Shown: positions 26,290 through 60,624 of the stretch, piece by piece
Layout: the number at the start of each line of letters is the position of its first letter
Numbering within the stretch: the stretch's first letter is position 1
Source: Escherichia phage Jgk1
Length of the DNA stretch: 64,000 bases
Strand: one strand, 5' to 3'
Sequence record: PV292302.1
Translations under genes and position numbers: made by a program
Notes under the pieces: model-generated
Seen by the model: only the letters and a program-made list of their open reading frames with translations
What the model was told of the DNA's origin: nothing
The model's database searches: none

Positions 26290-26371
26290 GGGGGAGTAGT
26301 CAAGCGGTCGAAGACGGCAGACTGTAAATCTGTTATCCCACACGGTAGTTCGAATCTACCCTCCCCCACCA
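26290..26371 (+). tRNA. tRNA-Tyr (anticodon GTA), type II with long variable arm
   Basis: acceptor GGGGGAG/CTCCCCC, anticodon arm GCAGA-CTGTAAA-TCTGT, T-arm GGTAG-TTCGAAT-CTACC, encoded CCA. Confidence 0.7.
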
Positions 26372-26372
26372 C

Positions 26373-26447
26373 GGTAAGTTAGCTAAATGGTGAAGCGGCT
26401 GACTGTTAATCAGTGATAGAGTGGTTCGAGTCCACTACTTACCGCCA
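26373..26447 (+). tRNA. tRNA-Asn (anticodon GTT)
   Basis: acceptor GGTAAGT/ACTTACC, anticodon loop CTGTTAA, T-arm AGTGG-TTCGAGT-CCACT, encoded CCA. Confidence 0.7.
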
Positions 26448-26452
26448 TATTA

Positions 26453-26529
26453 CGGAGTTTAGCTCAGTCTGGTAGAGCATCTGCTTTGGGAGCAGAGGGT
26501 CGTAGGTTCGAGTCCTGCAATTCCGACCA
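26453..26529 (+). tRNA. tRNA-Pro (anticodon TGG)
   Basis: canonical D-arm GCTC-AGTCTGGTA-GAGC, anticodon arm TCTGC-TTTGGGA-GCAGA, T-arm GTAGG-TTCGAGT-CCTGC, encoded CCA. Confidence 0.75.
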
Positions 26530-26631
26530 AACAATGCGTCGTTAGCTCAAACAAGGAGAGAGCGTGGGTCCGGTAGCTCCGGGTTAAACCCAAGGTTGGG
26601 AGTGCAAGTCTCCTGCGGCGTACCAAACAAT

Positions 26632-26707
26632 TAGGGGTTAGTTCAGTTGGTAGAACATCGGACTTTGATTCCGAATGTCACAGGTTCGAATCCTGTACCC
26701 CTTGCCA
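26632..26707 (+). tRNA. tRNA-Gln (anticodon TTG)
   Basis: D-arm GTTC-AGTTGGTA-GAAC, anticodon arm TCGGA-CTTTGAT-TCCGA, T-arm ACAGG-TTCGAAT-CCTGT, discriminator G, CCA. Confidence 0.75.
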
Positions 26708-26709
26708 AT

Positions 26710-26785
26710 TGCTTCATAGCTCAGCAGGTAGAGCGTTCCCCTGATAAGGGAGAGGTCACTGGTTCGAACCCAGTTGAAGCAACCA
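26710..26785 (+). tRNA. tRNA-Ile (anticodon GAT)
   Basis: acceptor TGCTTCA/TGAAGCA, D-arm GCTC-AGCAGGTA-GAGC, anticodon loop CTGATAA, T-arm ACTGG-TTCGAAC-CCAGT, CCA. Confidence 0.75.
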
Positions 26786-35800: not shown

Positions 35801-38800
35801 CTTCCAGAGCAGTAGTAAGTTTCTCAGACATGGCTTCACGAGACATGTTGTGAACTTTAATACCGAGTGCCTGAGCCAGGCCAACCTGGAAATCAGAGAA
35901 GGTCTGTGAGTTCTGGTTAGAAACATCAATGGTAGAGAATGTAGGTAAGATAGCCTCACGAACCAGTTTACTAGACTGTGGGTTGTTCTTACCAAGCATC
36001 TGCATACGACCAACACGGGTCATGTTGTAAGCATAATGGATAGGGGTTTCCAACCCTGCTTCTTGTTCCTGAACTTGTGACACAACACCAAACAGAGAAT
36101 CATATGCCATAGCTACCGAGAGGTTTTTACCTTCCAGTGACTTAGCAGTATTCACATTCAGTAATTCAGGGTTCAGAGTACCAGCACCCATTAATTCCAG
36201 AATGTTGTCACGTCCCATAGCTTCATAGAACTTAACCATTGGTTCATGAACACGGAACTCAGTAGCCTGTTCTGCTTTCAGGGCAGCTTTCTGTTCAGGG
36301 GTATTCTTAACAGCAGGGTTACGTAGCTGAGTTTGAGCCACGGAAGGTACATCATCACCGAAGTACATTTTCTCTTCTGGTTCCACAAGCACTGCTTCTT
36401 CAATGGCAGTTGGGAACTTGTTGATAGCATCGTTATCGTCAAGCTTCTCAATGGTATACAGACCAATAGTCTTGTTAGAGTCTGGGTCAATCTCAGACAC
36501 ATCAAGCATGGACTCAGTAACTTCACCTATTTCTACCAGAGAGGACAGAATCTCAGTAGCCATAGCCATTGGGATACCTTTGGTATAACCCAGTGGTGCA
36601 TCAGGATTACGATTAAGTCCCCAGTAAGACTCAATCTTTTGAGCCAGGGAGTTAGTAGCTTCGACCAGGGTCTGTGCATTATCAAAACTAGCCAAAATAC
36701 CTTCAGGCAGCAGAGATGCATCAATGCCAGTAATAGCAGCAATGTCTTTGATGTCTTTGGTAGCAGCATTCTGATTAGCAGTTAAACGCCATTGCAGTCC
36801 AGCAAGTACAGCAGTTTCAAGCAACTGGTCATTGAACTTGAAGGTATCCCCATCAGCTTCAACAATGTTCAGTAACTTACCACCAACCCAACGGTTAGCC
36901 TCAGTACCTTCAGCAAAGCGTTTGCCAACATTTTTATTAGCAAGGAACTTAGCCAGACGGTCTGACATGGTATTTTTCAGCTTGTCACCAAAGTCCATCA
37001 GAGTCTTATAACGGGCAATGACATCTGGAGTAAGTGCAGCATTCTCACTCTGAGTGAACGTTTCAAAACGTGCAGCAGAAGACAGTGCCTGACCTACATC
37101 TTTCAGAGGAGACTCAGTACCAACGATACGAGACTTAGGCTCAATTGGAAGACTGAAAGCTTTAAGGAATTGGTTAGGTGTCTTCTCTGTATTATGCAGA
37201 GGATACACATTTTCCATTTCTGTTTTAGCTTCAACAGGTTCCTCAATAGCAATTGCCTTTTCAGACTCTGGATTAGTTACTTCTTCTGATTTTGGTTTAG
37301 TCTCATTAACAGGAGCAGTATTTTCTACCACTGGTTCTGCCTTAGGAGTTACAGTAGGTTTAGCCTCCTGAGTTTTTGCAGGAGTTTCATCAACCTGATT
37401 CACTGGTTCAGTAGTCTGTTGGGATTGAGCAACATCAAGATTGCCTTGACGGAACTCTTTAACCACCTGGGCAGCAGGCTTGTCCAGACGTGAATCCAAT
37501 GAGGTAACTTTAACATGAGAGACATTAAGCTCCGGGTAAGCCGTAGCAAGTGCATTAGCAATATCAGCTACGGTTTTGGCTTCCAGTCCTACTTGCTGGG
37601 CAAACTTAACAGACTTGGTATCGTAAGGATTAACACCGAGTCCAGTACGGCTGCGTACCCATTCACGGGATGGAGAAAGAGCCTCATAATGGACAGACTT
37701 ATTCTTATCCGCATTCCCAGAAACCAAATGCTCATTCAACGCTCCGACCTTATTCTGCATGTGCTGGGCGAACTTCATAAAGTCGTCAAGGTAAGCGGAG
37801 GCCAAATCGAAGTTACCAGAGTTGTACGCAGAGCGAATGCGTTTAGCATGTTGCAACGCAGAGTACTGGCCTTCGTTAGAACGAGACTCATCGGTCTTAA
37901 TTTGTTTACTAACGATGTCCTGAGGTCGTAAACCCAACTCCTCTGCCTTGGTATCGAACTCTCGTGCTCCCTGTAATACAGCAGCAGCAGATTGCAGGGC
38001 AGCACGTTGACGGTTACCCAGAGTAATTTTCCCTTCACTAGCATGTTTCAGAACCATGTTAACTGAATCGGCATCCAGTACTTCTGGAGAGATATCAGCA
38101 GCCATAGCAATATTATCTGCTTGTTGTTGAGTAGTATTCTCAGTAGCCTTCAACTGACCAGCTTCAGCTTGTTCCTGAATCATAGAGTGAATAGCACGGA
38201 AAGCACGAAGTACCTTAGGGGTATTCTGCACGTTAGCCATTAAGCCAGAGAACTGGTCAACAATAGCAGCAGCAGGGCTGTCCTTAGGCAGGTTATTAAG
38301 AGCACCTGGGTCACGATTAATGAAGCTATCCAGTGACATGATGTTGTCATACATGTTCACAGCAGCTTCCATCTGCACGTTAGGGTCTTCGGCAGTATTA
38401 ACCAAATCTGCCATCTTCTGAATAGCATCAACACGGTTAGTAGACTGAGCTACTGCCTCACGAACAACAGGGTGAGCTTGTTCCATTTCCACAGGGTCAA
38501 AGTTAACAGCCTGTGTCAGGTCATTTGCATACTGGTGTGCAGCAGCTTTCTCTTCTGGAGAAATATTCATAGCATCAACAGCATCAGCAACAGTGGTCTG
38601 TGCTTGTTCTGCTTGTTGAGCAGCTTCTTGTGCAGCAGCATTAACCGTAGCATCAGCAACAGGGGAAGCCTGTTCATTCTGCTTAGCAAGGTTTTCACCA
38701 CGTTGAACCAGGATGTTAGTAATTGGGGATGCAGCTTTAGCTACCACATTACCAGCAGCATTAAGACCAGCCAGGGTAGTACGGATAGCAGGACCAGCAG

Positions 38801-40160
38801 CAATACTTGCTGAACCAGCAGCAGCACCAGGAGCTTGAGCAACCCCAGCAGAGCCAAAGCCATAAAGAGCACCCAGACCAGCTTGCTCACCAACACCTTT
38901 AAGAATGTCACGTTTTTCATCGACATTGCTCTTAATTGCACGGTTCTGTGCATACTGACCAGCACCCGATTGAATACCTTCTTCAACCGTCTCACGAAGC
39001 ATGTTGGAGCCAGCACCAGCCAGTGAACCTACCTTCAGTGGATTAAGTTCAAACTTGGATACCAGTGGACCAGTTGCAGCAGCTACAGGAGCAGTGATTG
39101 CAGCAGCATCAATACCAGTTTCAGATGCAGTCTGACGACGTGCCTCATCTGGGGTCATACCATCAGCAATATGCTGTTTGTATAACGGAGACTTAGCCAG
39201 TAGTTCAGAGTGAGGCATCTTCATAATTTCAGATGCAGTTTGTTGATAAGCACCACCAGCTTCCATTGCACCAATAGCAATGGCAGGGGCAGCAATAGTA
39301 CCAGCTTTAATAGCAGCAGTTGCTGGCTTATAGCCAAGCTCAGAAGCGAGAGTAATACCCTTAACGGCTTTCTCACCGAGCATAACTTTACCCAGTGCAG
39401 ATACACCACGAATCAGTGGACCACCTGTAAACAGGGAACCAACACCTTCCGCTAGCCCATCAGTTGCTGCCATCCCATTATCGAGAGTATTGGCAACAGA
39501 GTCGAAAGCGTCACGACCAATGCGAGACAAAGAAGCAACAAGAGGACTTTCACCATCTTTAATTTCCTGGTCATATTTGAATTGGTTAGCTTGTGCAGAA
39601 ATCTGGTTCTGATTAGCTACAACTTTACGGGTTGCATTAAGTGCATCAGACTGTAGACCATGCATCCCTTCATTCAGCCAATCCATTCCAGAAGCAATGG
39701 TTGCCCCAGCATTATCATTGAGTAAACCTGCACCAAGAGCAGCAATGCCCCCAAAGGTATTAGCAACACCAAGACCAACACCAGAAGCAGTATCACCCAG
39801 TGCTTGTGCATTAGAACGTTCCATTGAAAGGTCTTGACGTACTGCATCAGCAGCATTGGCACGACTGTTAAGAATCTGGAATCCTTGCTCAGTACCGTAC
39901 TTAGTAATGATTTCCATAGGGGAGGCTTGCGTAAAATCAGCCTGAAGGGAACCTGGAGTGAAGGCATCAATACCTAAATTACCGACACGACCTGTCTGGA
40001 GATTATAGGCATTCTCTGGGGTTAATTGGAAAGGGCTTTGCCCTTGTTCAGCTTGCTTCTGAGAGGTTGCAGTAGAGACATCGACTTGCTTAGCATTAGT
40101 GATGCTGTCTGCGAAACCTGCCAGACGGTCAAATGTTGACATGGCTTGTTTCCTGTTCAA
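29817..40160 (-). CDS. giant virion-encapsidated RNA polymerase (N4 gp50-like vRNAP)
   Basis: single uninterrupted 3447-aa ORF, terminal gene of the minus-strand late block, as in N4 (about 3500 aa); AGGA RBS. Confidence 0.8.
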   Translation of the reverse strand: MNRKQAMSTFDRLAGFADSITNAKQVDVSTATSQKQAEQGQSPFQLTPENAYNLQTGRVGNLGIDAFTPGSLQADFTQASPMEIITKYGTEQGFQILNSRANAADAVRQDLSMERSNAQALGDTASGVGLGVANTFGGIAALGAGLLNDNAGATIASGMDWLNEGMHGLQSDALNATRKVVANQNQISAQANQFKYDQEIKDGESPLVASLSRIGRDAFDSVANTLDNGMAATDGLAEGVGSLFTGGPLIRGVSALGKVMLGEKAVKGITLASELGYKPATAAIKAGTIAAPAIAIGAMEAGGAYQQTASEIMKMPHSELLAKSPLYKQHIADGMTPDEARRQTASETGIDAAAITAPVAAATGPLVSKFELNPLKVGSLAGAGSNMLRETVEEGIQSGAGQYAQNRAIKSNVDEKRDILKGVGEQAGLGALYGFGSAGVAQAPGAAAGSASIAAGPAIRTTLAGLNAAGNVVAKAASPITNILVQRGENLAKQNEQASPVADATVNAAAQEAAQQAEQAQTTVADAVDAMNISPEEKAAAHQYANDLTQAVNFDPVEMEQAHPVVREAVAQSTNRVDAIQKMADLVNTAEDPNVQMEAAVNMYDNIMSLDSFINRDPGALNNLPKDSPAAAIVDQFSGLMANVQNTPKVLRAFRAIHSMIQEQAEAGQLKATENTTQQQADNIAMAADISPEVLDADSVNMVLKHASEGKITLGNRQRAALQSAAAVLQGAREFDTKAEELGLRPQDIVSKQIKTDESRSNEGQYSALQHAKRIRSAYNSGNFDLASAYLDDFMKFAQHMQNKVGALNEHLVSGNADKNKSVHYEALSPSREWVRSRTGLGVNPYDTKSVKFAQQVGLEAKTVADIANALATAYPELNVSHVKVTSLDSRLDKPAAQVVKEFRQGNLDVAQSQQTTEPVNQVDETPAKTQEAKPTVTPKAEPVVENTAPVNETKPKSEEVTNPESEKAIAIEEPVEAKTEMENVYPLHNTEKTPNQFLKAFSLPIEPKSRIVGTESPLKDVGQALSSAARFETFTQSENAALTPDVIARYKTLMDFGDKLKNTMSDRLAKFLANKNVGKRFAEGTEANRWVGGKLLNIVEADGDTFKFNDQLLETAVLAGLQWRLTANQNAATKDIKDIAAITGIDASLLPEGILASFDNAQTLVEATNSLAQKIESYWGLNRNPDAPLGYTKGIPMAMATEILSSLVEIGEVTESMLDVSEIDPDSNKTIGLYTIEKLDDNDAINKFPTAIEEAVLVEPEEKMYFGDDVPSVAQTQLRNPAVKNTPEQKAALKAEQATEFRVHEPMVKFYEAMGRDNILELMGAGTLNPELLNVNTAKSLEGKNLSVAMAYDSLFGVVSQVQEQEAGLETPIHYAYNMTRVGRMQMLGKNNPQSSKLVREAILPTFSTIDVSNQNSQTFSDFQVGLAQALGIKVHNMSREAMSEKLTTALEGKLKPAVDMMVEFDKSGNLPTDAVSILDTALGGDKSFVALMALMEYARYLNAEDKTKFTTPLYVEADGVTNGPINAMVLMTGGKFTPDWIRNTAKGGLFFGKRGKTMNEHRSQDDSVDLYEASTNSLQQALNELRNAYSNNVPVMNQMNHLQNLMDLFIKDFNLNEDGSLDLKRGIAKNPLTITIYGSGARGIAGKMVSAITDTIYERFSDVLQARAKNPDISPAMAMFGKEAASEADAEAMLKTFLDSMEALTGNVTVMRKGQLSVQPADGAITGKLDPQKFTVKGDALKNLQENMLHLFVEPMRTGIQNTVGEGLMYSTEQLQKATQIQSLVLQDMFQQAVQDKLAEKEKDPTWKKGDFLTQKELNDIQASLAPLAPMIETGSQTFYIAGSENTDVANQVLATNFDDRMRVPMSIYAPSQAGVAGIPFMTIGTGDGMMMQTLSTMKGAPKNTLKIFDGMNIGINDITDASQKANEAVYTSWQGNPIKDVYNSYAKFMKNVDFSKLSDETKKAIGKSALEFELREGATDQDLMMAATQIERNLRNIALGVDIRHTVMNQVQTTVDQMAAVGSPYVNNGQVILEGLTVDQQVAKLNELFDAELNKRRDAVRADKAEPVKEVPAMEQVGRVLKSGVRLLSNTAITKLLKEMTPEQQAVLNEIQKSQAAKDYKVVYGTLAQLDAYAVEKNITRPAPEDMEAAEAGNAYGWTNFEDKTIYLVTHSLETLVHELVHASTFESVLAHYEGTPNEAVQNIEDLMNQFRTLDVSKESPAMREAYADALNTINGHLSNGFIEPALAKSAALNEYMAWGLTNRELAAKQKKTSALKAMIQSVYDAIKRLVFGRKKAPANSDDMFSNLLFNSAVVMRSQAPTAAVSKDTTLFHSTAYGNNDRLAELGQTFDNLIVNYLGNEPVQQYIRKGKFSDALVNATKVTRDVQGHGFTMNMQEQRLFTNIVAALATEAAISPAALSRAQEYYAHVTKNLTVESFMADPNSTNPADRYYAQQKFDTITGANNIEFDAQGRSSLLPTFVGLAMVSEELRNVLAEMPVMKADKVTGNTVDAMLTNIGTSAMASLNARIAGDSKATNVQEGMDALAQTIMESSLNAQSFYDSVATPTGNAIDRANQYVIDGITQLADATLDKARTVAQTAKNPLVKATAHAAQLVAAVATEENGQIVAEGVMKAMNQGKVWQPFHDLINDLTGRTKSNASVYDLIKAVRSQIQADRQQFREHLPTTIASKFSRKLTKEEWKAMHTGMGKTDLAVLRDTMSLAEIRDLLSDQKIVDREVNKLEADLQNQAGRNWPLINRKSKQLAQFMINGTVGNNLLRNATAISRLLGERTAVKSTVDVAKLDKLITLYALEAMSKADRESLSSLAQSETDGIDFATSYLVGQRKDEMTKASADDRAALNHYKGYIPVENKQGVNLIVADDSQYSELLEKSYTRLGAYQGSSADRGRARSYYFSPVQAQAPFSQGILQNVRDTANGVDMGTGFTMGAMVAGRITDKPSVERISKALARGERGNEPLMPIYDNNGRVVAYEQSIDPNMLQHIAGDDHLAKAIGVWRGRQVEEAKAQQFNDVLIENLHAMYEKDISDSASNKSQYVNLLGSKLDPVTADALRLMNAETRRKAESLFGEGELWVRRDMLNDALGYRAASVGDVWSGNSRWSPETLSTFKKALLGAMGNNAYKYTMGGENLIQNLIKDAKTLIVVKSVVVPAVNFIANLYQMVARGVPLKNIAQGIPQKTSEINQYLKSRLRQVDAEAELRAATNPNQIRKLKAEIQSITDSHKRMSIWPLLEAGEFSSIADAGIGRDDILITEGKIYEYMDALANKLPKAVRTAGRYALITKDTALFQGIQKTVEYSDFIAKAIIYDELTKRKGKTREEALGRVTEEFVNYDRLPGRFRGYMESMGLMWFYNFKIRSAKVAVSMVRNNPVHAAMAMLAPTPTMFGNVGLPIQDNIFSIAAQGKLDYSWGFGQGLRAHNLNPWMNIVN

Positions 40161-46958: not shown

Positions 46959-48161
46959 TTACAGTGGAGCAACAGTCTTGATGATTGCCAGACGTTCTGG
47001 ACGCTTAACCAGGATACCGTAGTACCACTTGATTGAACTGAAGCCAGTCTCACCGTATGGGTCGTTACGGTCAGCGGTTTCTTTACCAGGCATCTTAGTC
47101 ATAACGGTAAACTTAACAGACTTACCATCGGTCTGGAAGCCGATAGAGGTAAAGGAATCGTCACCAACAACCAGCATTGGGAACACGTCGTAGTGCTCAG
47201 TACCACCAACGGAAGTAGTACGATAACCTGGGTTAGTAGTTACAGCAGCACCAGCACCTGCCCAATGCAGCATCTCAGGAACCTGGATGATACGGAACTT
47301 GTCGATGGAACCGACTTCACCGTTCATCAGAGTACCAGCATCAGCGTAGTGCTGAATCTCAATGAAAGCTTTGTTACCAAACAGGTCTTTCATTGCCTTC
47401 AGTTCTGGAACCAGTTCAGAACCTACATACATCACACGAGTACCACCGATGACTTTGGTGTCAATCAGACGGGAACCAGTGATGATAGTAGTCTGGGTTG
47501 GGGTACGGTTCTCAGTAAGAATCTGGTCAAGACGCATCAGGTTCTTATAAGAAACAACAGAAGGGGTAGAACCTTCACCAGTAATGGTAGCATCAGAAGT
47601 AGCAGCACCTGCATACAGAACAGTACCAGCAGCAGCCAGCAGGTCTTTTTGCAGAACAGCTTCGGTCAGTTGGACAGCACCGTTCATCAGTTCACGAGAC
47701 AGGTGTTCCATCAGGCCATCATCAGAATCGAAGTCCAGAGATTCCTGGGTGAATTCGTAGAAGAAGCCAAACTTGTGAATAGAACCTTCACGAGCCAGAC
47801 GAGTAAAACCAACACGGTTAACACGACCACCGTTCTCTGTCAGCAGAGGCAGCTTGGAAGTAATGTTACCAATGTCTTTACTTGAGCCATACAGGTTACC
47901 ATTAACGATGGTAGCACCGTTAGCATCAATACCCTGGTCGTTGATGTTCTTATCATCCAGCAGAGGAACATACTCGTAAACCTTAATGGTTTTACCGTAG
48001 TTCTTCGGCATGTTAGTTACAGATGCCAGAGGCATGAAATACTGGTCTTTACGAGACTGGATGATTGCTTTCTTCAACCAGAAGTAAGTATTCATCTGGT
48101 CAGAGCCAGCACCATCAATGCTGGATTTCTGGCCGTCAATCGGAGCGTTATAGTTCAACAT
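46959..48161 (-). CDS. major capsid protein (putative)
   Basis: 400-aa ORF between scaffold-like and portal genes, followed by a strong hairpin; assignment by size and synteny with N4 gp56. Confidence 0.6.
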
Positions 48162-49775: not shown

Positions 49776-52046
49776 TTACAGGTTTGAACCAGGACGCAAA
49801 GATGGGTCCAGGTCTGGGTTAAAATAAGAGGAACCAAGTGACTGAGCAGGATTGGTTTGTGCTGCAATATCCCGTTCTTGTGGAGAGGTTCCATTAGTCA
49901 AAGCATTATATCCAACAGCAGCAGATATGTTGGGGGTAGTTTCGCCTTCTTTAGTAGGAGTTGTCAACGCCTTAGTAACTTGAAGGTTCTGATTACCCTG
50001 AGATTGTGCTTTTTGTTTTTCCATATCACGGGCATGTTTAGTACCTGATTCTGTTTCCAGATAATCCAGGTCTTTAAGGTCACCCTCAGAACTAGCTTTC
50101 TTAGCCTGTGCACGGTTAAGTTCAATCTTAGACAGAATCTCTTCATTCTCAAGCTGGGCTTTCTGTACAGCAAGTTGCTTAAGCTGTTCTTCAACAGGGT
50201 CTGGTTGTGGTTTAAAGTTACGTAGTTCATGAGCCAGTTCAGGCATACGCTTAAGCTCTGCAATGCTTGCCATTAACTTAAGGGTAATTTGTGGGTCAGC
50301 ATTTGGACCTACTGTTTGAACCATGAAAGCAAGGTCTTGTCCTTTCTGGTTATCAATCTCAGCAGTATTAATATCAACCTCAATGTCAAAGTTACCTTTT
50401 AAATCTTCTCGGTTAACTTCTACATATTCTTCGTTAGTAATGCGGATAACTTCTTTCTCAGAAAGAAACTCAGCATTCATTGCACAAATTTTTGCACCAA
50501 TGTCTGCCATGCCTTTAGCCATACGACGAAGAATAGCCATCTCACGTTTGGAAGCTGCATCCAATGCACCACGAATACCAGCAGCTACATCACCGTAAGC
50601 ATTACCACTTACGCCGCCAGCGAAAGCTTTTACCCCAGTAAGTGATTCTGCTTCCTGGTTTTGAAGCTGAGCCATAGTAAGAGCAGACTGTGGTAGCTCA
50701 GGGAACTTGTGTTCAATGATTGCCTGAGAAGGGTTGCCCTGCTGAGGGTTATAATCATAATCCTGACCATCTTCATACTTACGACGGTTATAGGTATCCA
50801 GCATACCTTTAGGCATACCACGCTGACCATTAGCACTACGACCTAACAGGTCAATCATCCCACGCATTACAGCACCAAGTACTGCTTGGTTATCGCCAAG
50901 CAACTCAGCATCTGCTTCACCATATAGTTCACGTTTACGAGGCATATATGGAACCACGACAAGGGGGAGCTTACCATCAGGGTATGGATTAAGCTCCATA
51001 CGAATAAGGGTAGTTCCAATCCAGGTAGCAACAATTGGTTGCAGGTCGCCATTACCTTCGGTATCCCAGAATCCCCAATATTCGTAAGCTACAACACGTT
51101 TACGCATTGCATCTTTAAACTGAAAATCACTAGGTGTTTTAGAAGCATGGTCTGGGTCAGTAATTGGGGAAGAACTCTCCCAATCAATCTTATCCAGATT
51201 ATGATAACGGTCAGGTGTCTTCAGTAAGTCTGCTTTGCAGGTTTCAAAAGAGATGACTGCATATAGTGCTTTGTCGAGGTCACCGTTACAGCTTGGGTCG
51301 ATAACCACGTTATTGGGGTTAAGCATTTCGACCGTTGGTCTGTTACAGATAGCCTTTTCAACCTCAACCATTGTAGTGCCCGTTTGGACTGCATATGTAG
51401 CTTCCTCGGTTTCATTGAAGTAATTCACTGCTTCTTTAACATCATCAGCTACTGTCTCTTCATATCCACGAGGGTTTTCTACTTGCAACTGCAAAGCTTG
51501 CTGAAGTATCTGTGCCTGTTCTTCAGTCTCAATAGGGTACAACTGGAACACTGGGGTTTCCGTTTTAACCTTAACAGTCTTACGTTCCCAGCCAATACGA
51601 GCAATACCAGTACCGTCATCACAAATAGAATGGACGTAATCATCTACCAGCTTCACTCGATTAAGTTGAGTACGGAATTGGTAGTTAAGTACTAATTCAT
51701 TTTGACGAGCACACTGTTCATCTTCCCAGGTAGCAGGAGTAATTTTAAATAACTTACTGGATGACAGGAATGGTTCAGATAGTGGAGCGTAACGCCACTC
51801 TGCCTGACGGCGAACCAGTTTAGGTTGGACTTGGGAACGTCCTTTAACCTTGGGTGCTTTATGTTTACCAGATGCTTTCATCAGGTCATTCCAGTCACGA
51901 ATCTCATTCATCAAAGCATCGTGAGCAGGCTTACCAGCTTCCAGGTCACCCTTAAGTGTTTGCAAACTCGGTTCCTTTTTCCAGTTAGTCAGCTTCTCAC
52001 TCTGAGCTGGGTCTGGTAAAGGCTTCATCGTATCTTGATGTTCCAT
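49776..52046 (-). CDS. portal protein (putative)
   Basis: 756-aa ORF upstream of scaffold and capsid genes; AGGAATAA RBS. Confidence 0.6.
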
Positions 52047-53174: not shown

Positions 53175-53424
53175 CTGGTTTCTCCTTAGGCTTCAGTCGA
53201 ATCAGTCTGCCAATAATGTTCAAGGCAAACAGAGAAATAGTAATACCGGAACCATGAGGAATCTGGTCAAGGATGTGCTTAGGTAGACCAGAGAACAAAG
53301 GCTGTATTACATCTATTGCTGAGAAGAGAATTAAACCTACTGCACTAATCTGGATAGAAGCCCATTTCCAGGACTTCTTCCAGTTAGGTACAAGTTCAAC
53401 TCTTTTGGTTAACCTGCGAACCAT
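53161..53424 (-). CDS. putative holin (two transmembrane segments)
   Basis: 88-aa product from internal ATG with two hydrophobic helices; immediately upstream of the endolysin. Confidence 0.4.
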   Translation of the reverse strand: MVRRLTKRVELVPNWKKSWKWASIQISAVGLILFSAIDVIQPLFSGLPKHILDQIPHGSGITISLFALNIIGRLIRLKPKEKPDGNS

Positions 53425-53738
53425 GCAAAAATCTCCCGACGTGTTGCAGCTAAGATACCAATGATTGCACCTGCTGCTGCCCATACCCATTTACCGAAGA
53501 TTCCAGCACCAACCACTTTATGCTTAATGGTAATGAACTCTTCAATAGTAGGTTCGTTTTTAGCCAGACTGTCCTCGACATTTTTAAGACGATTGCCCAT
53601 GTCAGCAACTGACTTACTAAGTTCAACGAGGGATTTTTCTAGCTTTGCCCGGTCTTCCCTCTCTGATTTCTGGTTTTCGAACAAAGTACGAAACCTCTCA
53701 TCCAGTCTGGCAAGCATTACCTCAATAGGGTCAGACAT
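53409..53738 (-). CDS. membrane protein of the lysis cassette (holin/antiholin candidate)
   Basis: 109 aa with charged N-terminal half and C-terminal transmembrane segment. Confidence 0.35.
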   Translation of the reverse strand: MSDPIEVMLARLDERFRTLFENQKSEREDRAKLEKSLVELSKSVADMGNRLKNVEDSLAKNEPTIEEFITIKHKVVGAGIFGKWVWAAAGAIIGILAATRREIFAWFAG

Positions 53739-53823
53739 AATAGTATTCCAATATGTTAATGTGTGTATGTAGAAAGCCCTATATATACTACTACAGATGC
53801 TAGCTCATACACGAGGAAGGGTC

Positions 53824-54438
53824 ATGACTATTAAAGATAAACTTACAGATGGGTATGATGCAATCCCATTAATGAAAGATGGTATAGCTTTGGTTGGGGA
53901 ATTCGGAAAGAAAATCCTAGAAGCTAGGACAGTAGGGGAACTACCATTCTCACCTGCTGAAGAACAACAAGATGCATTCTTGTTAGACCTGTTTACATGG
54001 TCAGGCTCGCAATCTGTGCCAGACGGAACCTGGTTAAACTACTTTGCCTTACCGGGAATGGTTAAAGCACTCAATGGTACGGCAGGACTTACCATCGTAA
54101 ACAACAACCTATTATTTCCAGTACGACAAAAGAATACACAGGTAATGTTCAGTGTACGTATATCAGGAACAGTATCAGGTGGGGCAGGTACTGCTAGGGA
54201 ATGGAGAACACAAACTAGACGTACAGATGGGGTTACCATAGTAGGGTCAGACCCTAGTACAAAAGTACAAGGATTAGATATTACAAACAGAGATGCAGTG
54301 TTAGCCAGTTATACACTTGGACCAAGTGACCCATTTATGGTTACTGGTATTCAACTAGGACTAAATAACATTTCTGGGCAAACTATTACACTTACGAGTG
54401 TATCCGTTCGTATGATGCAGACAGTTAACCCAGAATAG
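53824..54438 (+). CDS. hypothetical protein encoded opposite to the late operon
   Basis: ATG at 53824 with GAGGAAGG RBS; 204 aa, Gly/Thr/Ser-rich; ends at a bidirectional terminator. Confidence 0.45.
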   Translation: MTIKDKLTDGYDAIPLMKDGIALVGEFGKKILEARTVGELPFSPAEEQQDAFLLDLFTWSGSQSVPDGTWLNYFALPGMVKALNGTAGLTIVNNNLLFPVRQKNTQVMFSVRISGTVSGGAGTAREWRTQTRRTDGVTIVGSDPSTKVQGLDITNRDAVLASYTLGPSDPFMVTGIQLGLNNISGQTITLTSVSVRMMQTVNPE

Positions 54439-54468: not shown

Positions 54469-56268
54469 TTAGCTAATCTGGTACAAGGTTGCTGAACCGT
54501 CATAGATGCACTTCCACAGCGTATGGTGATACTGTGGTATAGGATAATCTACGGAACCTTTAGGGATTAGGTTATTAGAAGCAAACTTAACAACCCCATC
54601 GGCTGTATTAGACGCTATCATTAAATCCCTACCATACGGGGAACCATACACATGAAAAATGCTGACAGCAGCTCCGGTAATTCGGAGATTTGCAGCAGGG
54701 TGCAACTTAGTGAGGTCAATATCTCCAGCAGCAGTAACATCAACAAAGAATGGCTTACCACCGTCAAAACCATTAACTGTAGCACCAGAATCCAGATAGA
54801 TGTTAACACGGGAATCAATAGGTATCTCATTACCTGAACAATGTGCACCACCTACAATCAGACCACCAGCGGTACGTCTTCCATTGGAATCGTTCTCATA
54901 GAACCCAAACTTATTATCTGTTACCGAACCATTAATCACTTGGATACCCCAGAGATTAGTGGAATCTACTGTAGCATCAATACCATAGGTGCAGTTAGTA
55001 ACCTTACCACCTTGAACAACCAACCCATAATTAGATGGGTCACAACGAATGAACTTAACCCCGTTAAAGTCAATGTCTGAACCAGATAGGTATGCAGGTT
55101 TGATAGTGCCTTCTGGAGCTAGGAATACATCCCCGGTAAAACTCATAACACTACCAGTACCAGTAATGAAATACGGTACATCCTTACGAGGAATCCCCAA
55201 CTTACTAGCCAGGTAAGCAACATCCGTAGGAATGAATACGTTGTTACTAAAGAACACCTCATGACTTGCGCCCAAATCAATAGGAGCCTTGGTATAGTAA
55301 AAACGGTCAGCTAGGGTGTTATCACCAACAGGTCTAGCAACCTCAAAGTGACAGTGATTAAAGAACACGAACCATGGGTTACCAAATTTAAGCATGTAGG
55401 GATTAAACTCAAAATGACAACCAGTGAAGTATACGTAGTTACTATCCTGAATCATGGTCACAGCAGGGTTAGTAACATTACCGCTTTGTAGGAAAGAACA
55501 GTTAGTAAAATAGGTATCCTGAATGTACCCAATTTCTAGTGCCTGGTTCGGGAAGAATTGTATGTTAACTCCCTCAACAATACCCATCCAACCAATACCA
55601 TTAAGATACAAACCCACATCACACTGACCATCAACCCCCCAAATAGCAAAATCACGTAAGGTAAGTCCAAAGCAGTAAGCCGAACCAGAATCAATAGATA
55701 ACATTCGACCAGTTGCTACATGGGAGTTAAATACTGTACCTCGTACAGGGGAAGGGGAATGTACAGAAGCTACAGTCCTCAAACCTTGAGCACCCTCACC
55801 ATACATGCACAGAGCGTAATCCACCTGAATAGATTTATTAATTTCATACTTACCAGATGGAGAAAATACAGCATAACCCACCTTAGCAGCATTGATTGCT
55901 GCCTGCGTACCTGCATAATCTTGGCTCTGAGTTAAGCTAGTTACAAATGGATATACCATTTGTGCAGCAGATAGGGTGCTAAACTTTTCACTTAATGGGT
56001 GTAGTTCACCATCCCCTACAGCACCGAAGTCCTTGATATTAATTACATCCGCCAGTTTAAGCTGGAGACTACGTTCAATTGATGCAGCCAATGGGGACAT
56101 ATGCCCAATGTTGGAAGTACCATACTTAGATGCCAGCGTTGCTTTATACTCAGCAAGTGAAGTTAGTGGTGGATACGGTGCAGGCAACAAATCAACAGTA
56201 ATGTTACCTGGTGAATAGGTTAACTTACCGTCACCGACTGTATTGATGTAAACGTTGGCCGGTAACAC
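54469..56268 (-). CDS. tailspike protein, C-terminal segment (pectate-lyase-like beta-helix), split off by a tandem duplication
   Basis: 599-aa ORF with GAVGDGELHPL...AINAAKVGYAVFSPSGKYEINKSIQV; its first about 330 aa are encoded by repeat copy 1. Confidence 0.5.
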   Translation of the reverse strand: MLPANVYINTVGDGKLTYSPGNITVDLLPAPYPPLTSLAEYKATLASKYGTSNIGHMSPLAASIERSLQLKLADVINIKDFGAVGDGELHPLSEKFSTLSAAQMVYPFVTSLTQSQDYAGTQAAINAAKVGYAVFSPSGKYEINKSIQVDYALCMYGEGAQGLRTVASVHSPSPVRGTVFNSHVATGRMLSIDSGSAYCFGLTLRDFAIWGVDGQCDVGLYLNGIGWMGIVEGVNIQFFPNQALEIGYIQDTYFTNCSFLQSGNVTNPAVTMIQDSNYVYFTGCHFEFNPYMLKFGNPWFVFFNHCHFEVARPVGDNTLADRFYYTKAPIDLGASHEVFFSNNVFIPTDVAYLASKLGIPRKDVPYFITGTGSVMSFTGDVFLAPEGTIKPAYLSGSDIDFNGVKFIRCDPSNYGLVVQGGKVTNCTYGIDATVDSTNLWGIQVINGSVTDNKFGFYENDSNGRRTAGGLIVGGAHCSGNEIPIDSRVNIYLDSGATVNGFDGGKPFFVDVTAAGDIDLTKLHPAANLRITGAAVSIFHVYGSPYGRDLMIASNTADGVVKFASNNLIPKGSVDYPIPQYHHTLWKCIYDGSATLYQIS

Positions 56269-56280
56269 AGGTAATCCATA
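55281..56280. repeat. tandem direct repeat, copy 1 (1000 bp)
   Basis: identical to 56281-57280; ORF-track ORFs 55720-55935 and 55976-56218 recur exactly at +1000. Confidence 0.9.
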
Positions 56281-58318
56281 TAGGAGCCTTGGTATAGTAA
56301 AAACGGTCAGCTAGGGTGTTATCACCAACAGGTCTAGCAACCTCAAAGTGACAGTGATTAAAGAACACGAACCATGGGTTACCAAATTTAAGCATGTAGG
56401 GATTAAACTCAAAATGACAACCAGTGAAGTATACGTAGTTACTATCCTGAATCATGGTCACAGCAGGGTTAGTAACATTACCGCTTTGTAGGAAAGAACA
56501 GTTAGTAAAATAGGTATCCTGAATGTACCCAATTTCTAGTGCCTGGTTCGGGAAGAATTGTATGTTAACTCCCTCAACAATACCCATCCAACCAATACCA
56601 TTAAGATACAAACCCACATCACACTGACCATCAACCCCCCAAATAGCAAAATCACGTAAGGTAAGTCCAAAGCAGTAAGCCGAACCAGAATCAATAGATA
56701 ACATTCGACCAGTTGCTACATGGGAGTTAAATACTGTACCTCGTACAGGGGAAGGGGAATGTACAGAAGCTACAGTCCTCAAACCTTGAGCACCCTCACC
56801 ATACATGCACAGAGCGTAATCCACCTGAATAGATTTATTAATTTCATACTTACCAGATGGAGAAAATACAGCATAACCCACCTTAGCAGCATTGATTGCT
56901 GCCTGCGTACCTGCATAATCTTGGCTCTGAGTTAAGCTAGTTACAAATGGATATACCATTTGTGCAGCAGATAGGGTGCTAAACTTTTCACTTAATGGGT
57001 GTAGTTCACCATCCCCTACAGCACCGAAGTCCTTGATATTAATTACATCCGCCAGTTTAAGCTGGAGACTACGTTCAATTGATGCAGCCAATGGGGACAT
57101 ATGCCCAATGTTGGAAGTACCATACTTAGATGCCAGCGTTGCTTTATACTCAGCAAGTGAAGTTAGTGGTGGATACGGTGCAGGCAACAAATCAACAGTA
57201 ATGTTACCTGGTGAATAGGTTAACTTACCGTCACCGACTGTATTGATGTAAACGTTGGCCGGTAACACAGGTAATCCATAAGACTTCTCAGCAACCACAT
57301 CGTAGACAACTTTCATACCATTAAGATACTGAGTAGTGTTAGAACTAAGAATTACTTCAGAATCCTTAACATTAACTGAGCGTGCTATTTCCTGGATGGT
57401 ACGGTCAGACATGATGAAAGTAATAGACTCACCACCAACCTGCACAACCAATTGGTCATTGGTAGCCAATGGCTCCGTCAGTAAAATACGCTGATTAGGG
57501 GCATCTACTGTATAAGATTGGGCAGCCAAACCTTGTACATATCTCAGTCCATTCTTAAAAATAGCCGGAATAGACTGGAAGGTATAAGGAATAGCAATAA
57601 CCTGCTCCCCACCTACAGCATAACCCCCATTGTATAGCCAGTTAACCTGAACCCAATCCGTAATATTAGGGTTGCTTGGTACTGCTGGAGTACCAGCCAG
57701 GAGCAGGATAACCTCATCATCAGCTACTAACGGAGTATCCAAGGTAACAGTCAGAGTAGTAGCATCATAAGTAAAACCTAACGTGTTAATGTAGGTTTCG
57801 TGGTTCTTGATGATGTAAGCAACACCAACAGTTTGAGCGGGAACAGGTATAGTAGTTTCGCCCCCAATAGCCGAACCATTGTTATAGATATAAGGAATGT
57901 AAGAGGAACCATTACCAGAGCCAATGTTTTCCTCAAATGTTCCCGGTACATTAACCAGTAACCATGAACCAGTGGCAGAGGTGTCGTCTGGGATGATGCC
58001 AGTAGTATCGTCAGCTACATACAGATAATCTTTTACTTGCAGCTTACCTGTATTGTCCTTGTCATACAGTCGAGCATAGGTAGCCTTAACAGTTAAAGCT
58101 TTCAACTCTGCTTCTGACTTAACACCCAAAACCATACCGTATTGGTTCAGGAAGTCGTAGATAGGTTTCAGATTACCAAGATTGCAGTAAACTGTACGAA
58201 CCACGTTATATGCGTTGCCAATCATTTTATCGACCAATGGGTCGTTAGAAGTATTGTCGCAATATGGGCTAGTCCAGTCGTTATTTGCATCGAAAGGAGC
58301 ATGTCCTGTCATTTCCAA
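56231..58318 (-). CDS. tailspike protein, N-terminal segment plus one copy of the duplicated beta-helix block, frame-terminated after the repeat junction
   Basis: 695-aa ORF; the final 16 codons after the 56280/56281 junction are out-of-frame sequence. Confidence 0.5.
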   Translation of the reverse strand: MEMTGHAPFDANNDWTSPYCDNTSNDPLVDKMIGNAYNVVRTVYCNLGNLKPIYDFLNQYGMVLGVKSEAELKALTVKATYARLYDKDNTGKLQVKDYLYVADDTTGIIPDDTSATGSWLLVNVPGTFEENIGSGNGSSYIPYIYNNGSAIGGETTIPVPAQTVGVAYIIKNHETYINTLGFTYDATTLTVTLDTPLVADDEVILLLAGTPAVPSNPNITDWVQVNWLYNGGYAVGGEQVIAIPYTFQSIPAIFKNGLRYVQGLAAQSYTVDAPNQRILLTEPLATNDQLVVQVGGESITFIMSDRTIQEIARSVNVKDSEVILSSNTTQYLNGMKVVYDVVAEKSYGLPVLPANVYINTVGDGKLTYSPGNITVDLLPAPYPPLTSLAEYKATLASKYGTSNIGHMSPLAASIERSLQLKLADVINIKDFGAVGDGELHPLSEKFSTLSAAQMVYPFVTSLTQSQDYAGTQAAINAAKVGYAVFSPSGKYEINKSIQVDYALCMYGEGAQGLRTVASVHSPSPVRGTVFNSHVATGRMLSIDSGSAYCFGLTLRDFAIWGVDGQCDVGLYLNGIGWMGIVEGVNIQFFPNQALEIGYIQDTYFTNCSFLQSGNVTNPAVTMIQDSNYVYFTGCHFEFNPYMLKFGNPWFVFFNHCHFEVARPVGDNTLADRFYYTKAPIWITCVTGQRLHQYSR
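56281..57280. repeat. tandem direct repeat, copy 2 (1000 bp)
   Basis: identical to 55281-56280; flanks diverge at 55271-55280 versus 56271-56280. Confidence 0.9.
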
Positions 58319-59013
58319 CCTCGTTTTTCAAATTTAGTATTAGTGAATGAATCAGTGTGACCTACCAGAGCATGGTCGGTAATCTCACCACAGATACTTT
58401 CGTAAAGCTGCAAGTACTCAGCAGCTTTTGCTGTGCTGCCTTCAGTATTGAGTCCGGTGTGGTAGCGATAACCAACCCAGTTCTCTAATGCCGAATAAAG
58501 CGTTTCAGGTAAGTCAACGTACTGACCTTCATCCGTTACTTCCGGGTGACGTGCCTGGTATTGCACATTAAGTGCTTCAAATTTACGAGGCCATATTACC
58601 TGGAGCACATCTGGTCTAGGGGTGAACAAACCCTCACTGTTACTTCCCGTATCATTGAGTGTACGTCTATCCCCACGAGAATCATAGACTTCCAGGATTT
58701 TAATGACGTCTTCCTGGAACGGTTCTTGTGGTGAGTCCATGATGAATGGGTACTGTACCTTAGCTGGGTCGAAATGCTCATAGGAGTAAATCTTCTGCAA
58801 CGGGTAATCTGTACGCCCTTCCTTCATCTCAACAATACAGTTATTAGTCTTCAGTTGGAAACGACTATGTAAACGAGTCAGACCTTCATTGATAAGGGCA
58901 AGCACTTCAGGCTTACCCCACGGTTCAATGCCAATCTTATCGTCAGTGATAAAGCCTGCACTCTTAAGTGTAGTAAGAGCTAAGACTTTATATACCTCAG
59001 ATAACTTTCTCAT
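58309..59013 (-). CDS. hypothetical virion-module protein
   Basis: 234-aa ORF between terminase and tailspike genes. Confidence 0.45.
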   Translation of the reverse strand: MRKLSEVYKVLALTTLKSAGFITDDKIGIEPWGKPEVLALINEGLTRLHSRFQLKTNNCIVEMKEGRTDYPLQKIYSYEHFDPAKVQYPFIMDSPQEPFQEDVIKILEVYDSRGDRRTLNDTGSNSEGLFTPRPDVLQVIWPRKFEALNVQYQARHPEVTDEGQYVDLPETLYSALENWVGYRYHTGLNTEGSTAKAAEYLQLYESICGEITDHALVGHTDSFTNTKFEKRGWK

Positions 59014-59019
59014 AGTTCC

Positions 59020-60624
59020 TCACACAATGTATGAACGTAGTGGGTTAACAGAGTCTTCCTCATCATCATCCCACATCGGGTCACCTTTAGCATCGACCAT
59101 AGTCATACCTGCCTGAGGTTTCCACGGGTTGAGGTAGCCCAACATTGAAATGGTATCAATGCAGTCATCCTTGCCCTTAATGCCGTTGATGGTGGCTAAC
59201 TTAATCTGCCCCATGAATAATCCCATGATAGTAGTGGTACGCATCTCTTCTGGGAAATACATCTTCCCTGCTTTGAACCAGGGAACTACCAAGTTAAATC
59301 GGGACAGCTTAGATGTTACCGGACGAATACCAGGCTGACCACCCTGAGATGATGCAAAGTTAAAGAATACATTACGATTAATCATCTCTTTCTGTAAAAG
59401 AGAGATGAAACCACCTTGCTGTCCTGTAACCTCAACCCCAACGTTTTGTGGTTGGTACTCTTGAACCAGACGAAACAGTTCATCAAAGTTCTTATCCATA
59501 AGCTGGCGAGCAGCCACACCGTCAACCCAGAACCAATCTCCATTAGAACTGTAAGCCCAAACCGAAATAACACTGTAGTCGCTAGTCTGTTTTTCTGAGG
59601 TAGCGAAGTCAGTAGTAATGTAATAGTTGTAGCAGGTCTTCATACGAAGTAACTGCTGACGGCTATACCACTTAATCTCCGAGTCCTGAACCAGTCTCTC
59701 ATCCTCGGAGCTAATACGAAGCATAAGTTCCTGGTAGAAACCAGCTAGCTTCCCAGTTTTAGCTGCCATATCATACTGGTCTTTGATGTACTGATAAGAG
59801 AAACGGTCATCCCATGCACCCTGGAATTCTTCTAGGGAACAAGGAAACTTCTCACATACAGGCCATACGTTGACATCCCATGCACCGGATTCAACTGCTT
59901 CAATGAGGATATCCTCCTTATTAAAGGGAGTACCGTTGAATATTACTTTACGACGTGTAGGGTCAAGTGCGTGGTTCACACCCTTATAGACTGTATCCTT
60001 AATGGCTTCCATGCTTGTCTTAGAGCGAGCATCATCATCACTAACTAAGTCATCAAGAATGCAGAGTGTTGGACGCTTACCAAAAATCTTCGTACCACGA
60101 AGACCAGTCTTAGCACCAAACATCTTAACACCCAGTCGATGTCCTTCAGCATTAATGAACTCTAAGTAGTTATCCGTAAAGGTAGCTTTAGGAATCCATT
60201 GCTGAAGAAACTCACTATTGTTGTAACGGAATTCAATGTTTTTACGTGCAGACTTAACACCGTTATCCATTGAGTCAGACACGTAAATCATACCCTCAAC
60301 CTTACCAAGCCCAGGTAAGTGACCGAACACTGCCAGGAATAAAGTGAAGTACTCCATAAACAGAGTTGTCTTTGCTGCACCACGGAAGCAAAGGTTAGCA
60401 ATGTACTGGTGTGGTGATGTTACCTTATCCAGCATCTTTAAATGCACAGGAGGAGTCTTGTTCGACTCCCCTTCCTTACCATTAACCAGCTTAATAAAGT
60501 TGGCGAAGGTAAGTGCAAATGTGCTTGGCAAGTAGTTGGGTGTGTTAAGTACCGAGTAGTCTACCTGGTCAAGCCATTCATCTAGCTCTTGCTTCTTTAA
60601 TTCAGACATCAGTAATGTCCTCAT
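59020..60624 (-). CDS. terminase large subunit (putative)
   Basis: 534-aa ORF with P-loop-like CFRGAAKTT near N-terminus and acidic nuclease-like C-terminal region; first large gene of the late block. Confidence 0.6.
   Translation of the reverse strand: MRTLLMSELKKQELDEWLDQVDYSVLNTPNYLPSTFALTFANFIKLVNGKEGESNKTPPVHLKMLDKVTSPHQYIANLCFRGAAKTTLFMEYFTLFLAVFGHLPGLGKVEGMIYVSDSMDNGVKSARKNIEFRYNNSEFLQQWIPKATFTDNYLEFINAEGHRLGVKMFGAKTGLRGTKIFGKRPTLCILDDLVSDDDARSKTSMEAIKDTVYKGVNHALDPTRRKVIFNGTPFNKEDILIEAVESGAWDVNVWPVCEKFPCSLEEFQGAWDDRFSYQYIKDQYDMAAKTGKLAGFYQELMLRISSEDERLVQDSEIKWYSRQQLLRMKTCYNYYITTDFATSEKQTSDYSVISVWAYSSNGDWFWVDGVAARQLMDKNFDELFRLVQEYQPQNVGVEVTGQQGGFISLLQKEMINRNVFFNFASSQGGQPGIRPVTSKLSRFNLVVPWFKAGKMYFPEEMRTTTIMGLFMGQIKLATINGIKGKDDCIDTISMLGYLNPWKPQAGMTMVDAKGDPMWDDDEEDSVNPLRSYIV

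What the first reader, a model, noticed from the sequence alone, without database searches (positions are those of the whole stretch)
55281..57280. Perfect 1000-bp tandem duplication inside the tailspike gene, breaking its reading frame
Positions 55281-56280 and 56281-57280 are identical as far as can be read. The ORF track shows the same two small ORFs exactly 1000 bp apart (55720-55935 / 56720-56935 and 55976-56218 / 56976-57218). With one copy, the minus-strand tailspike ORF would run 58318 to 54469, 2850 nt or about 949 aa. Because 1000 is not a multiple of 3, the gene is instead split into a 695-aa product that ends 16 codons past the junction and a 599-aa ORF; both carry the same roughly 333-aa beta-helix block. 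This is either an assembly artefact or a recent real duplication that truncates or reshapes the receptor-binding protein.
Basis: seen in the sequence. Interest (0 to 1): 0.8.

Follow-up and report, generated by a model that had tools for sequence, protein, structure and literature searches.

The report
Exact 1000-bp duplication, probably artefact
The sequence really does contain a perfect, back-to-back 1000-base repeat that breaks the only tailspike gene of an N4-like phage, but its exactly round length and its absence from every relative suggest software or editing made it, not biology.

Summary
Window 55281-56280 and 56281-57280 are identical (0 mismatches in 1000). This is the only repeat of 35 nt or more in the 64-kb window.

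It lies in the gp66-type tailspike gene (minus strand) of a natural, previously unsampled N4-like phage (Schitoviridae, about 80% nt identity to Gamaleyavirus). Removing one copy restores a 947-aa ORF. That ORF is collinear end to end with five full-length homologues of 934-951 aa. Four related DNA loci align as single copies, and their alignments break exactly at 56280.

As written, the gene gives two pieces:
- a 693-aa truncated product (677 native residues plus 16 frameshifted residues);
- a 599-aa downstream ORF with no ribosome-binding site.

The gene is the only tailspike in the adsorption locus, so the allele would probably cripple the phage.

The repeat has an exactly decimal period, zero divergence and only 1 bp of junction homology. 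Its boundaries are out of frame, fall mid-domain and cut invariant motifs, and nothing compensates for the frameshift. I therefore rate a non-biological origin at about 0.85: an assembly, polishing or stitching error, or an edit of the record. A real, very recent loss-of-function duplication is about 0.13.

Only reads or PCR can settle it, and the source record was not found in any collection. Interest is low.

The parts
55281..56280 (-). Repeat copy at lower coordinates. It is the second copy in gene order, and here it is read in its native frame as part of ORF B.
   Evidence: Identical to 56281-57280, 0 mismatches in 1000. Its left boundary 55280|55281 is native: relatives align straight through it.
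56281..57280 (-). Repeat copy at higher coordinates. It is the first copy in gene order and is read in the native frame as part of ORF A.
   Evidence: Its right boundary 57280|57281 is native: SP-076, three Logan contigs and PhAPEC5 align straight through it.
56280..56281 (.). Novel junction (...GGTAATCCATA|TAGGAGCCTT... on the plus strand). This is the only non-native join.
   Evidence: Alignments to four related loci all break exactly at 56280 and restart about 1000 nt back in the relative. Only 1 bp of homology is shared at the junction. The junction 40-mer is absent from IMG/VR.
56231..58312 (-). ORF A, the truncated tailspike as written: 693 aa from ATG 58312 (695 aa from TTG 58318). It has 677 native residues plus 16 frameshifted residues (WITCVTGQRLHQYSR...) and then TGA.
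   Evidence: Residues 16-680 align to SP-076 tailspike residues 5-665.
54469..56268 (-). ORF B, 599 aa, mechanical GTG start. It corresponds to native residues 349-947 and lacks the N-terminal anchor. No Shine-Dalgarno sequence precedes it.
   Evidence: aligns to SP-076 residues 335-934 at 84.7% identity. The upstream sequence AAGGCTCCTATATGGATTACCT lacks the GAGG-type sites seen before neighbouring genes.
54469..58312 (-). The whole gp66-type tailspike gene including the extra copy. With one copy removed it is a 947-aa ORF.
   Evidence: Collinear with five full-length homologues of 934-951 aa at 74-79% identity. PDB sequence matches: residues 1-401 to the tail fiber 9d80, and residues 411-544 to tailspikes 4ru4 and 4ru5.
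58309..59013 (-). Upstream neighbour, homologue of the N4 gp67 (30 kDa) virion protein. Its stop overlaps the tailspike ATG as ATGA.
   Evidence: phrog_2125, virion structural protein, E=1.9e-78. Synteny with PhAPEC5 gp66.
53409..53738 (-). N4 gp63 homologue, marking the other edge of the adsorption locus.
   Evidence: phrog_5211. Synteny with PhAPEC5 gp69, annotated 'similar to gp63 from N4'.

Best explanation
The extra 1000-bp copy is most likely not part of the phage's real genome. The true gene is a single-copy, 947-aa gp66-type tailspike. At some step after sequencing, a block of exactly 1000 bases was written twice. Possible steps are contig stitching or polishing with fixed-length overlapping chunks, joining of overlapping pieces without trimming, or a manual or synthetic edit of the record.

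Shown: the duplication exists in the sequence, it is exact, its period is exactly 1000, it is absent from every relative, and it destroys the only tailspike gene of the adsorption locus.

Inferred: that its origin is computational or editorial rather than biological. Which software or step produced it is unknown.
For: 1. The period is exactly 1000 with 0 mismatches. Recombination has no preference for decimal round numbers. Under any broad prior for natural duplication length (for example uniform over 50-5000 bp) this value has a probability of about 2e-4. Round numbers are typical of software parameters and hand edits (my own reasoning).
2. It is private to this sequence. SP-076, three Logan contigs and PhAPEC5 are single-copy, and their alignments break exactly at 56280. 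All five full-length protein homologues are 934-951 aa.
3. Collapsing one copy restores a perfect 947-aa ORF with no gap at either boundary. Both boundaries cut invariant motifs, Y345-G-L-P and A676-P-I-D-L-G. They are therefore not domain boundaries.
4. 1000 mod 3 = 1, so the gene is frameshifted. No slippery heptamer lies between the junction and the stop, and no SD sequence precedes ORF B.
5. This is the only tailspike between the gp63 and gp67 homologues. PhAPEC5, SP-076 and L005 carry a second tailspike there. G7C-type phages use this locus for adsorption (PMC6393563). The allele should therefore be strongly deleterious.
6. The rest of the window is clean. The core genes checked (capsid, portal, terminase, vRNAP) are intact, the window is collinear with PhAPEC5, substitutions are biased to third codon positions, and there are no other repeats. 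A single isolated defect with a round length looks like a processing event.
Against: - No reads, coverage or provenance are available, so the artefact is inferred and not demonstrated.
- De Bruijn-graph assemblers tend to collapse tandem repeats rather than invent them, and a false junction needs some source (my own knowledge). I cannot name the step that created it.
- Real tandem duplications do arise in bacterial DNA, and reportedly also without junction microhomology (Li and Bock 2019, as cited in PMC11111574). The 1-bp junction is therefore not diagnostic.
- A length of exactly 1000 is improbable for a natural event but not impossible.
Confidence: 0.85

Rival explanations
1. It is a real, very recent tandem duplication in the phage DNA, produced by illegitimate recombination or replication slippage with a 1-bp junction. 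It gives a loss-of-function tailspike allele. The 693-aa product keeps the N-terminal anchor but lacks the last 270 residues, and the rest is not translated. Such a genome could be a defective or minority variant caught by sequencing. It could also be a variant tolerated because another receptor-binding protein lies outside the window.
For: - The duplication is physically in the sequence and is exact, as expected of a very young event.
- Tandem duplications without junction microhomology are reported (PMC11111574).
- An extra 1 kb (about 1.4% of a genome of about 72 kb) is plausibly packageable (my own knowledge).
- About 8 kb of the genome lies outside the window, so another RBP cannot be excluded.
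Against: - The exactly decimal length.
- It breaks the only tailspike in the adsorption locus.
- It is absent from all relatives.
- No compensating feature is present.
- Tandem repeats of 1 kb are unstable under homologous recombination, so they would be lost quickly without selection (established knowledge).
Confidence: 0.13
2. It is a real and functional rearrangement. The duplication splits the receptor-binding protein into an anchor piece (ORF A) and a free or separately attached enzymatic piece (ORF B). Alternatively, the frame is restored by ribosomal frameshifting, giving a tailspike of about 1280 aa with an internal repeat. Either would change host range.
For: - Both ORFs are long and open.
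- ORF B retains the whole C-terminal receptor-binding region, residues 349-947.
- Tailspike loci are known hot spots of modular exchange. P0007, for example, is a Kuttervirus tail fibre sharing 68% of the query at 79% identity.
Against: - ORF B has no Shine-Dalgarno sequence, and its only early starts are GTG or TTG.
- No slippery heptamer lies in the 48 nt between the junction and the stop.
- ORF B lacks the N-terminal region that attaches gp66-type proteins to the virion.
- The boundaries fall inside invariant motifs, not at domain borders.
- Zero divergence shows no period of selection.
- No homologue among 342 hits shows such an architecture in the five full-length relatives.
Confidence: 0.02

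Closest known systems
Tailspike AGF88392.1 of Salmonella phage FSL SP-076 (Ithacavirus, Schitoviridae), 934 aa
   Same: With one copy removed, the window's protein aligns residues 16-949 to SP-076 residues 5-934 at 74.8% identity with only 8 gap positions. The DNA is about 76-79% identical in one piece. The upstream neighbours are the same: the gp67 homologue and the terminase.
   Different: SP-076 has a single copy of the 1000-nt block and a second tailspike gene immediately downstream (SP076_00300, 709 aa). The window has the block twice and no second tailspike.
gp66-type tail fibre of G7C-like N4 phages (adsorption locus between the gene 63 and gene 67 homologues)
   Same: The genomic position is the same. 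The N-terminal 401 residues match the solved 'tail fiber protein' 9d80 (E=8.7e-133), and residues 1-92 match the N4 '60 kDa protein' 9lc0. PhAPEC5 gp67 is annotated as similar to the N4 60 kDa protein. In G7C, gp66 connects the tailspike gp63.1 to the virion neck (PMC6393563).
   Different: Here the C-terminal part is itself a tailspike-like region, matching LKA1 gp49 and phi297 gp27 over residues 411-544. No gp63.1-type partner gene is present in the locus.
Spontaneous tandem duplications by illegitimate recombination in bacteria and phages
   Same: Head-to-tail arrangement, identical copies and a single novel junction. Such events can occur with little or no microhomology (PMC11111574).
   Different: Natural events have arbitrary lengths and are usually kept only under selection for dosage or genome size. 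This one is exactly 1000 nt and inactivates the gene it sits in.
Duplications created by assembly, polishing or stitching, or by record editing
   Same: An exact copy, a round fixed length, an isolated defect in an otherwise clean genome, and absence from relatives.
   Different: The responsible step is not identified. Ordinary circular-contig end overlaps have assembler-specific lengths and lie at contig ends, not inside a gene (my own knowledge).

Membership tests
N4-like (Schitoviridae) gp66-type tail fibre/tailspike | N-terminal virion-anchor domain homologous to N4 gp66 / G7C gp66 | tested here: met
   Residues 1-401 match 9d80_D 'tail fiber protein' at E=8.7e-133, and residues 1-92 match 9lc0 '60 kDa protein' at E=3.5e-7.
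N4-like (Schitoviridae) gp66-type tail fibre/tailspike | Gene lies in the adsorption locus between the gene 63 and gene 67 homologues, upstream of the terminase block | tested here: met
   Neighbours: gp63 homologue 53409-53738, gp67 homologue 58309-59013 and terminase 59020-60624. Locus definition from PMC6393563.
N4-like (Schitoviridae) gp66-type tail fibre/tailspike | Full-length collinearity with annotated family members | tested here: met
   Met only after removing one copy: 947 aa against five homologues of 934-951 aa, 74-79% identity. As written, the gene is split.
N4-like (Schitoviridae) gp66-type tail fibre/tailspike | Beta-helix fold of the receptor-binding part | tested here: inconclusive
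   Sequence match of residues 411-544 to the N-terminal parts of tailspikes 4ru4 and 4ru5. No Pfam family was found. The AlphaFold model is unusable, with mean pLDDT 34.
Natural tandem duplication (illegitimate recombination or slippage) | Novel junction supported by sequencing reads or amplicons at full depth | not testable with these tools
   No reads are available. The source record was not found in IMG/VR, JGI metagenomes, phage, plasmid or E. coli collections, or the 15-billion-protein index.
Natural tandem duplication (illegitimate recombination or slippage) | Short homology at the junction | tested here: inconclusive
   Only 1 bp is shared, which is the chance level. Microhomology is reported as not strictly required.
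Natural tandem duplication (illegitimate recombination or slippage) | Unit length is arbitrary, with no reason to be a decimal round number | tested here: not met
   The period is exactly 1000.
Assembly, processing or editing artefact | Exact copy of fixed round length, isolated, in an otherwise clean and collinear sequence | tested here: met
Assembly, processing or editing artefact | Absent from all related genomes, and removing it restores the intact gene | tested here: met
Assembly, processing or editing artefact | No read support for the junction, and normal depth over one copy | not testable with these tools
   No read data.
Programmed ribosomal frameshift restoring the frame | Slippery heptamer between the junction and the ORF A stop | tested here: not met
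   None found in 56231-56300 on the minus strand.

The most novel reading that the evidence does not exclude
The duplication is real and was caught just after it arose. An N4-like phage with a single tailspike would have split its receptor-binding protein into two parts: an anchor-bearing stub (residues 1-677 plus 16) and a separately encoded C-terminal enzymatic part (residues 349-947). That would be a snapshot of how tailspike modules become separate genes, or of how a phage population carries defective adsorption alleles.
Probability: 0.03. Interest if true: 0.5.

Novelty: not a real feature. Interest (0 to 1): 0.1.

Why it matters
If it is an artefact, the practical value is quality control. 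The record should be corrected to a single-copy, 947-aa tailspike. Otherwise gene callers will report two bogus proteins (693 or 695 aa, and 599 aa), and host-range or depolymerase predictions will be misled.

If it were real, it would be a rare direct observation of a newborn duplication inactivating or splitting the sole receptor-binding protein of an N4-like phage. That would be of moderate interest for tailspike modular evolution, but it would still be a single, unselected, probably deleterious mutation.

Tried and rejected
1. Finding the source record, to see whether the public copy carries the duplication. All searches were negative:
- the native-boundary 40-mer and the junction 40-mer in IMG/VR;
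- a conserved 32-mer from inside the unit in IMG/VR and JGI metagenomes;
- exact-protein look-ups of six window proteins, including the terminase;
- megablast against phage, E. coli genome and plasmid collections, with best hits at or below about 80-85% identity or none at all.
The exact-protein index already covers NCBI genomes and held none of the window's proteins.

2. Structure prediction of the collapsed protein from the 6-sequence alignment gave mean pLDDT 34. It was unusable, so no fold search was run, and domain limits rest on PDB sequence matches.

3. Pfam gave no family for the 947-aa protein.

4. Literature searches found nothing directly relevant on tailspike tandem duplications or on polishing-chunk duplication artefacts. 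My recollection that some long-read polishers use 1000-base chunk overlaps is unverified, and I do not rely on it.

5. Rejected: a synthetic or non-natural backbone. Differences from PhAPEC5 are biased to third codon positions (109 of 148 in the capsid gene), as in natural divergence.

6. Rejected: functional rescue by frameshifting or by reinitiation at ORF B. There is no slippery site and no SD sequence.

7. The unit's 0-based start, 55280, is a multiple of 80. With the 1-bp boundary ambiguity this is weak evidence, and I give it no weight.
Full report
**Observation.** The claim is correct to the base. Window 55281-56280 and 56281-57280 are identical, with 0 mismatches in 1000. The period-1000 identity extends by only one further base (55280), so the novel junction has 1 bp of homology, which is the chance level. 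No other stretch of the window is repetitive at periods 500, 1000, 2000 or 3000. A full repeat scan finds this as the only direct or inverted repeat of 35 nt or more in all 64 kb.

**What the surrounding sequence is.** The window is a natural N4-like phage genome (Schitoviridae).
- It is collinear with Escherichia phage PhAPEC5 (Gamaleyavirus) over the whole window at about 70-88% nt identity.
- It shows the N4 gene order: virion RNA polymerase (29817-40160), structural genes, major capsid (46959-48161), portal (49776-52046), spanin and endolysin, gp63 homologue (53409-53738), the tailspike, gp67 homologue (58309-59013), terminase (59020-60624) and gp69 homologue.
- Differences from PhAPEC5 are concentrated at third codon positions: 23/16/109 in the capsid gene and 112/74/308 in the portal gene. 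The backbone is therefore genuine evolved sequence.
- No record closer than about 80-85% exists in the phage, plasmid or E. coli genome collections.
- None of six window proteins is present verbatim among about 15 billion public proteins. The phage is unsampled in these resources.

**The gene.** Removing one copy gives a 2850-nt ORF.
- Its probable start is the ATG at 58312, preceded by GAGG and overlapping the upstream stop as ATGA. This gives 947 aa.
- The protein aligns over residues 16-949 to the 934-aa tailspike of Salmonella phage FSL SP-076 at 74.8% identity.
- It aligns end to end with five full-length homologues of 934-951 aa at 74-79% identity, with no gap at either boundary of the duplicated block.
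- By sequence, residues 1-401 match the solved tail fiber protein 9d80 (E=8.7e-133), and the first 92 residues match the N4 60 kDa protein. Residues 411-544 match the tailspikes of phages LKA1 and phi297.
- It is therefore a gp66-type protein: an N-terminal virion anchor followed by a tailspike-like receptor-binding part. In G7C-like phages the adsorption locus between genes 63 and 67 holds the tail fibre gp66, which connects to the virion neck, and the tailspike gp63.1 (PMC6393563).

**Anatomy of the duplication.** In gene coordinates the unit is nt 1033-2032, that is codons 345-677 plus one base.
- It starts inside the anchor-homologous region and ends inside the C-terminal tailspike-like region.
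- Both boundaries fall within invariant motifs, Y345-G-L-P and A676-P-I-D-L-G. It does not respect domain borders.
- Because 1000 mod 3 = 1, the first reading frame runs 677 native codons and then 16 foreign codons to a TGA.
- The second ORF equals native residues 349-947. It has only a GTG start with no Shine-Dalgarno sequence, whereas neighbouring genes have GAGG-type sites.
- There is no slippery heptamer between the junction and the stop.

**Comparative test.** DNA alignments to SP-076 and to three Logan metagenome contigs carrying the closest tailspikes (P0001, P0002) all give the same picture. One HSP ends exactly at window 56280. A second HSP starts at 56280 and restarts about 1000 nt back in the relative. 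The collapsed sequence aligns to SP-076 as one HSP, and none of the three Logan contigs has a repeated 30-mer. PhAPEC5 aligns straight through 57280|57281. So the outer boundaries are native, 56280|56281 is the only non-native join, and the single-copy state is the family norm.

**Consequence if taken literally.** The window has only this one tailspike between the gp63 and gp67 homologues. PhAPEC5 (gp68), SP-076 (SP076_00300) and contig L005 (677 aa, Tail_spike_N plus GDSL lipase) carry a second one there. The window instead has a plus-strand 213-aa ORF of unknown function. A frameshift in the sole receptor-binding protein should abolish or severely impair adsorption. This is an inference from the role of this locus.

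**Interpretation.** I conclude that the extra copy is most probably not biological (confidence about 0.85). The decisive consideration is the length. The period is exactly 1000, a number meaningful only in decimal notation, that is, to software parameters and people. Natural duplication lengths have no such preference.

Supporting points are:
- zero divergence;
- absence from every relative;
- boundaries that are out of frame, mid-domain and within invariant motifs;
- lack of any compensating signal;
- disruption of a presumably essential gene;
- an otherwise flawless, repeat-free genome.

The limits of this conclusion are as follows.
- I have no reads and could not find the source record, so I cannot show that the junction lacks read support.
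- I cannot name the step that produced the copy. It could be stitching or polishing with fixed overlaps, untrimmed joining of overlapping pieces, or an edit of the sequence.
- The 1-bp junction is not itself diagnostic, since tandem duplications without microhomology are reported.

**Rivals.** A real, very recent loss-of-function duplication, such as a defective or minority genome, remains possible at about 0.13. A functional split or frameshift-rescued tailspike is very unlikely, at about 0.02, given.

**Novelty and interest.** As a biological feature it is most likely not real. Its value is as a flag to correct the record to a single 947-aa tailspike. Interest is 0.1.

Noticed in passing
window 53797-54438 (+): PhAPEC5 and SP-076 carry a second tailspike (about 710 aa) between the gp63 homologue and the gp66-type gene. 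At that position this phage has only a 213-aa ORF on the opposite strand (phrog_17779, unknown function). It is about 85% nt identical to a gene annotated 'protease' in Salmonella phage TR2. Contig L005 has both the second tailspike and a 217-aa ORF on the opposite strand at the matching place (aligned at about 71% nt). The phage therefore appears to have a single-tailspike adsorption locus.
   Followed up: partly
window 15838-18417 (+): The DNA polymerase gene is uninterrupted (859 aa). In PhAPEC5 it is split by a 672-bp intron carrying an HNH endonuclease. A second PhAPEC5 HNH gene (gp49) also appears to be missing here, judging from the alignment offset jumps near window 17510 and 20345.
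   Followed up: no
window 26290-26785 (+): A cluster of five tRNA genes (Tyr-GTA, Asn-GTT, Pro-TGG, Gln-TTG, Ile-GAT) lies in a region poorly conserved with PhAPEC5, which has a single annotated tRNA-Ile.
   Followed up: no
window 29817-40160 (-): The virion RNA polymerase ORF is 3447 aa with a mechanical TTG start. It is about 385 nt shorter than in PhAPEC5, with the length difference located near window 37220-37259.
   Followed up: no
L004 (Logan SRR18080422 contig, 71,740 bp): In this near-complete related genome the contig ends about 130 nt after the tailspike gene. Assemblers therefore also break at this variable adsorption locus in relatives.
   Followed up: no
window 54469-58312; one search hits P0006, P0007, P0014, P0018: The C-terminal receptor-binding part of this tailspike is shared at 52-79% identity with proteins of unrelated phages and prophages. 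Examples are the Kuttervirus SS9 tail fibre, a Citrobacter 'head-binding protein' and an E. coli prophage tailspike. This is typical modular exchange of tailspike heads.
   Followed up: no
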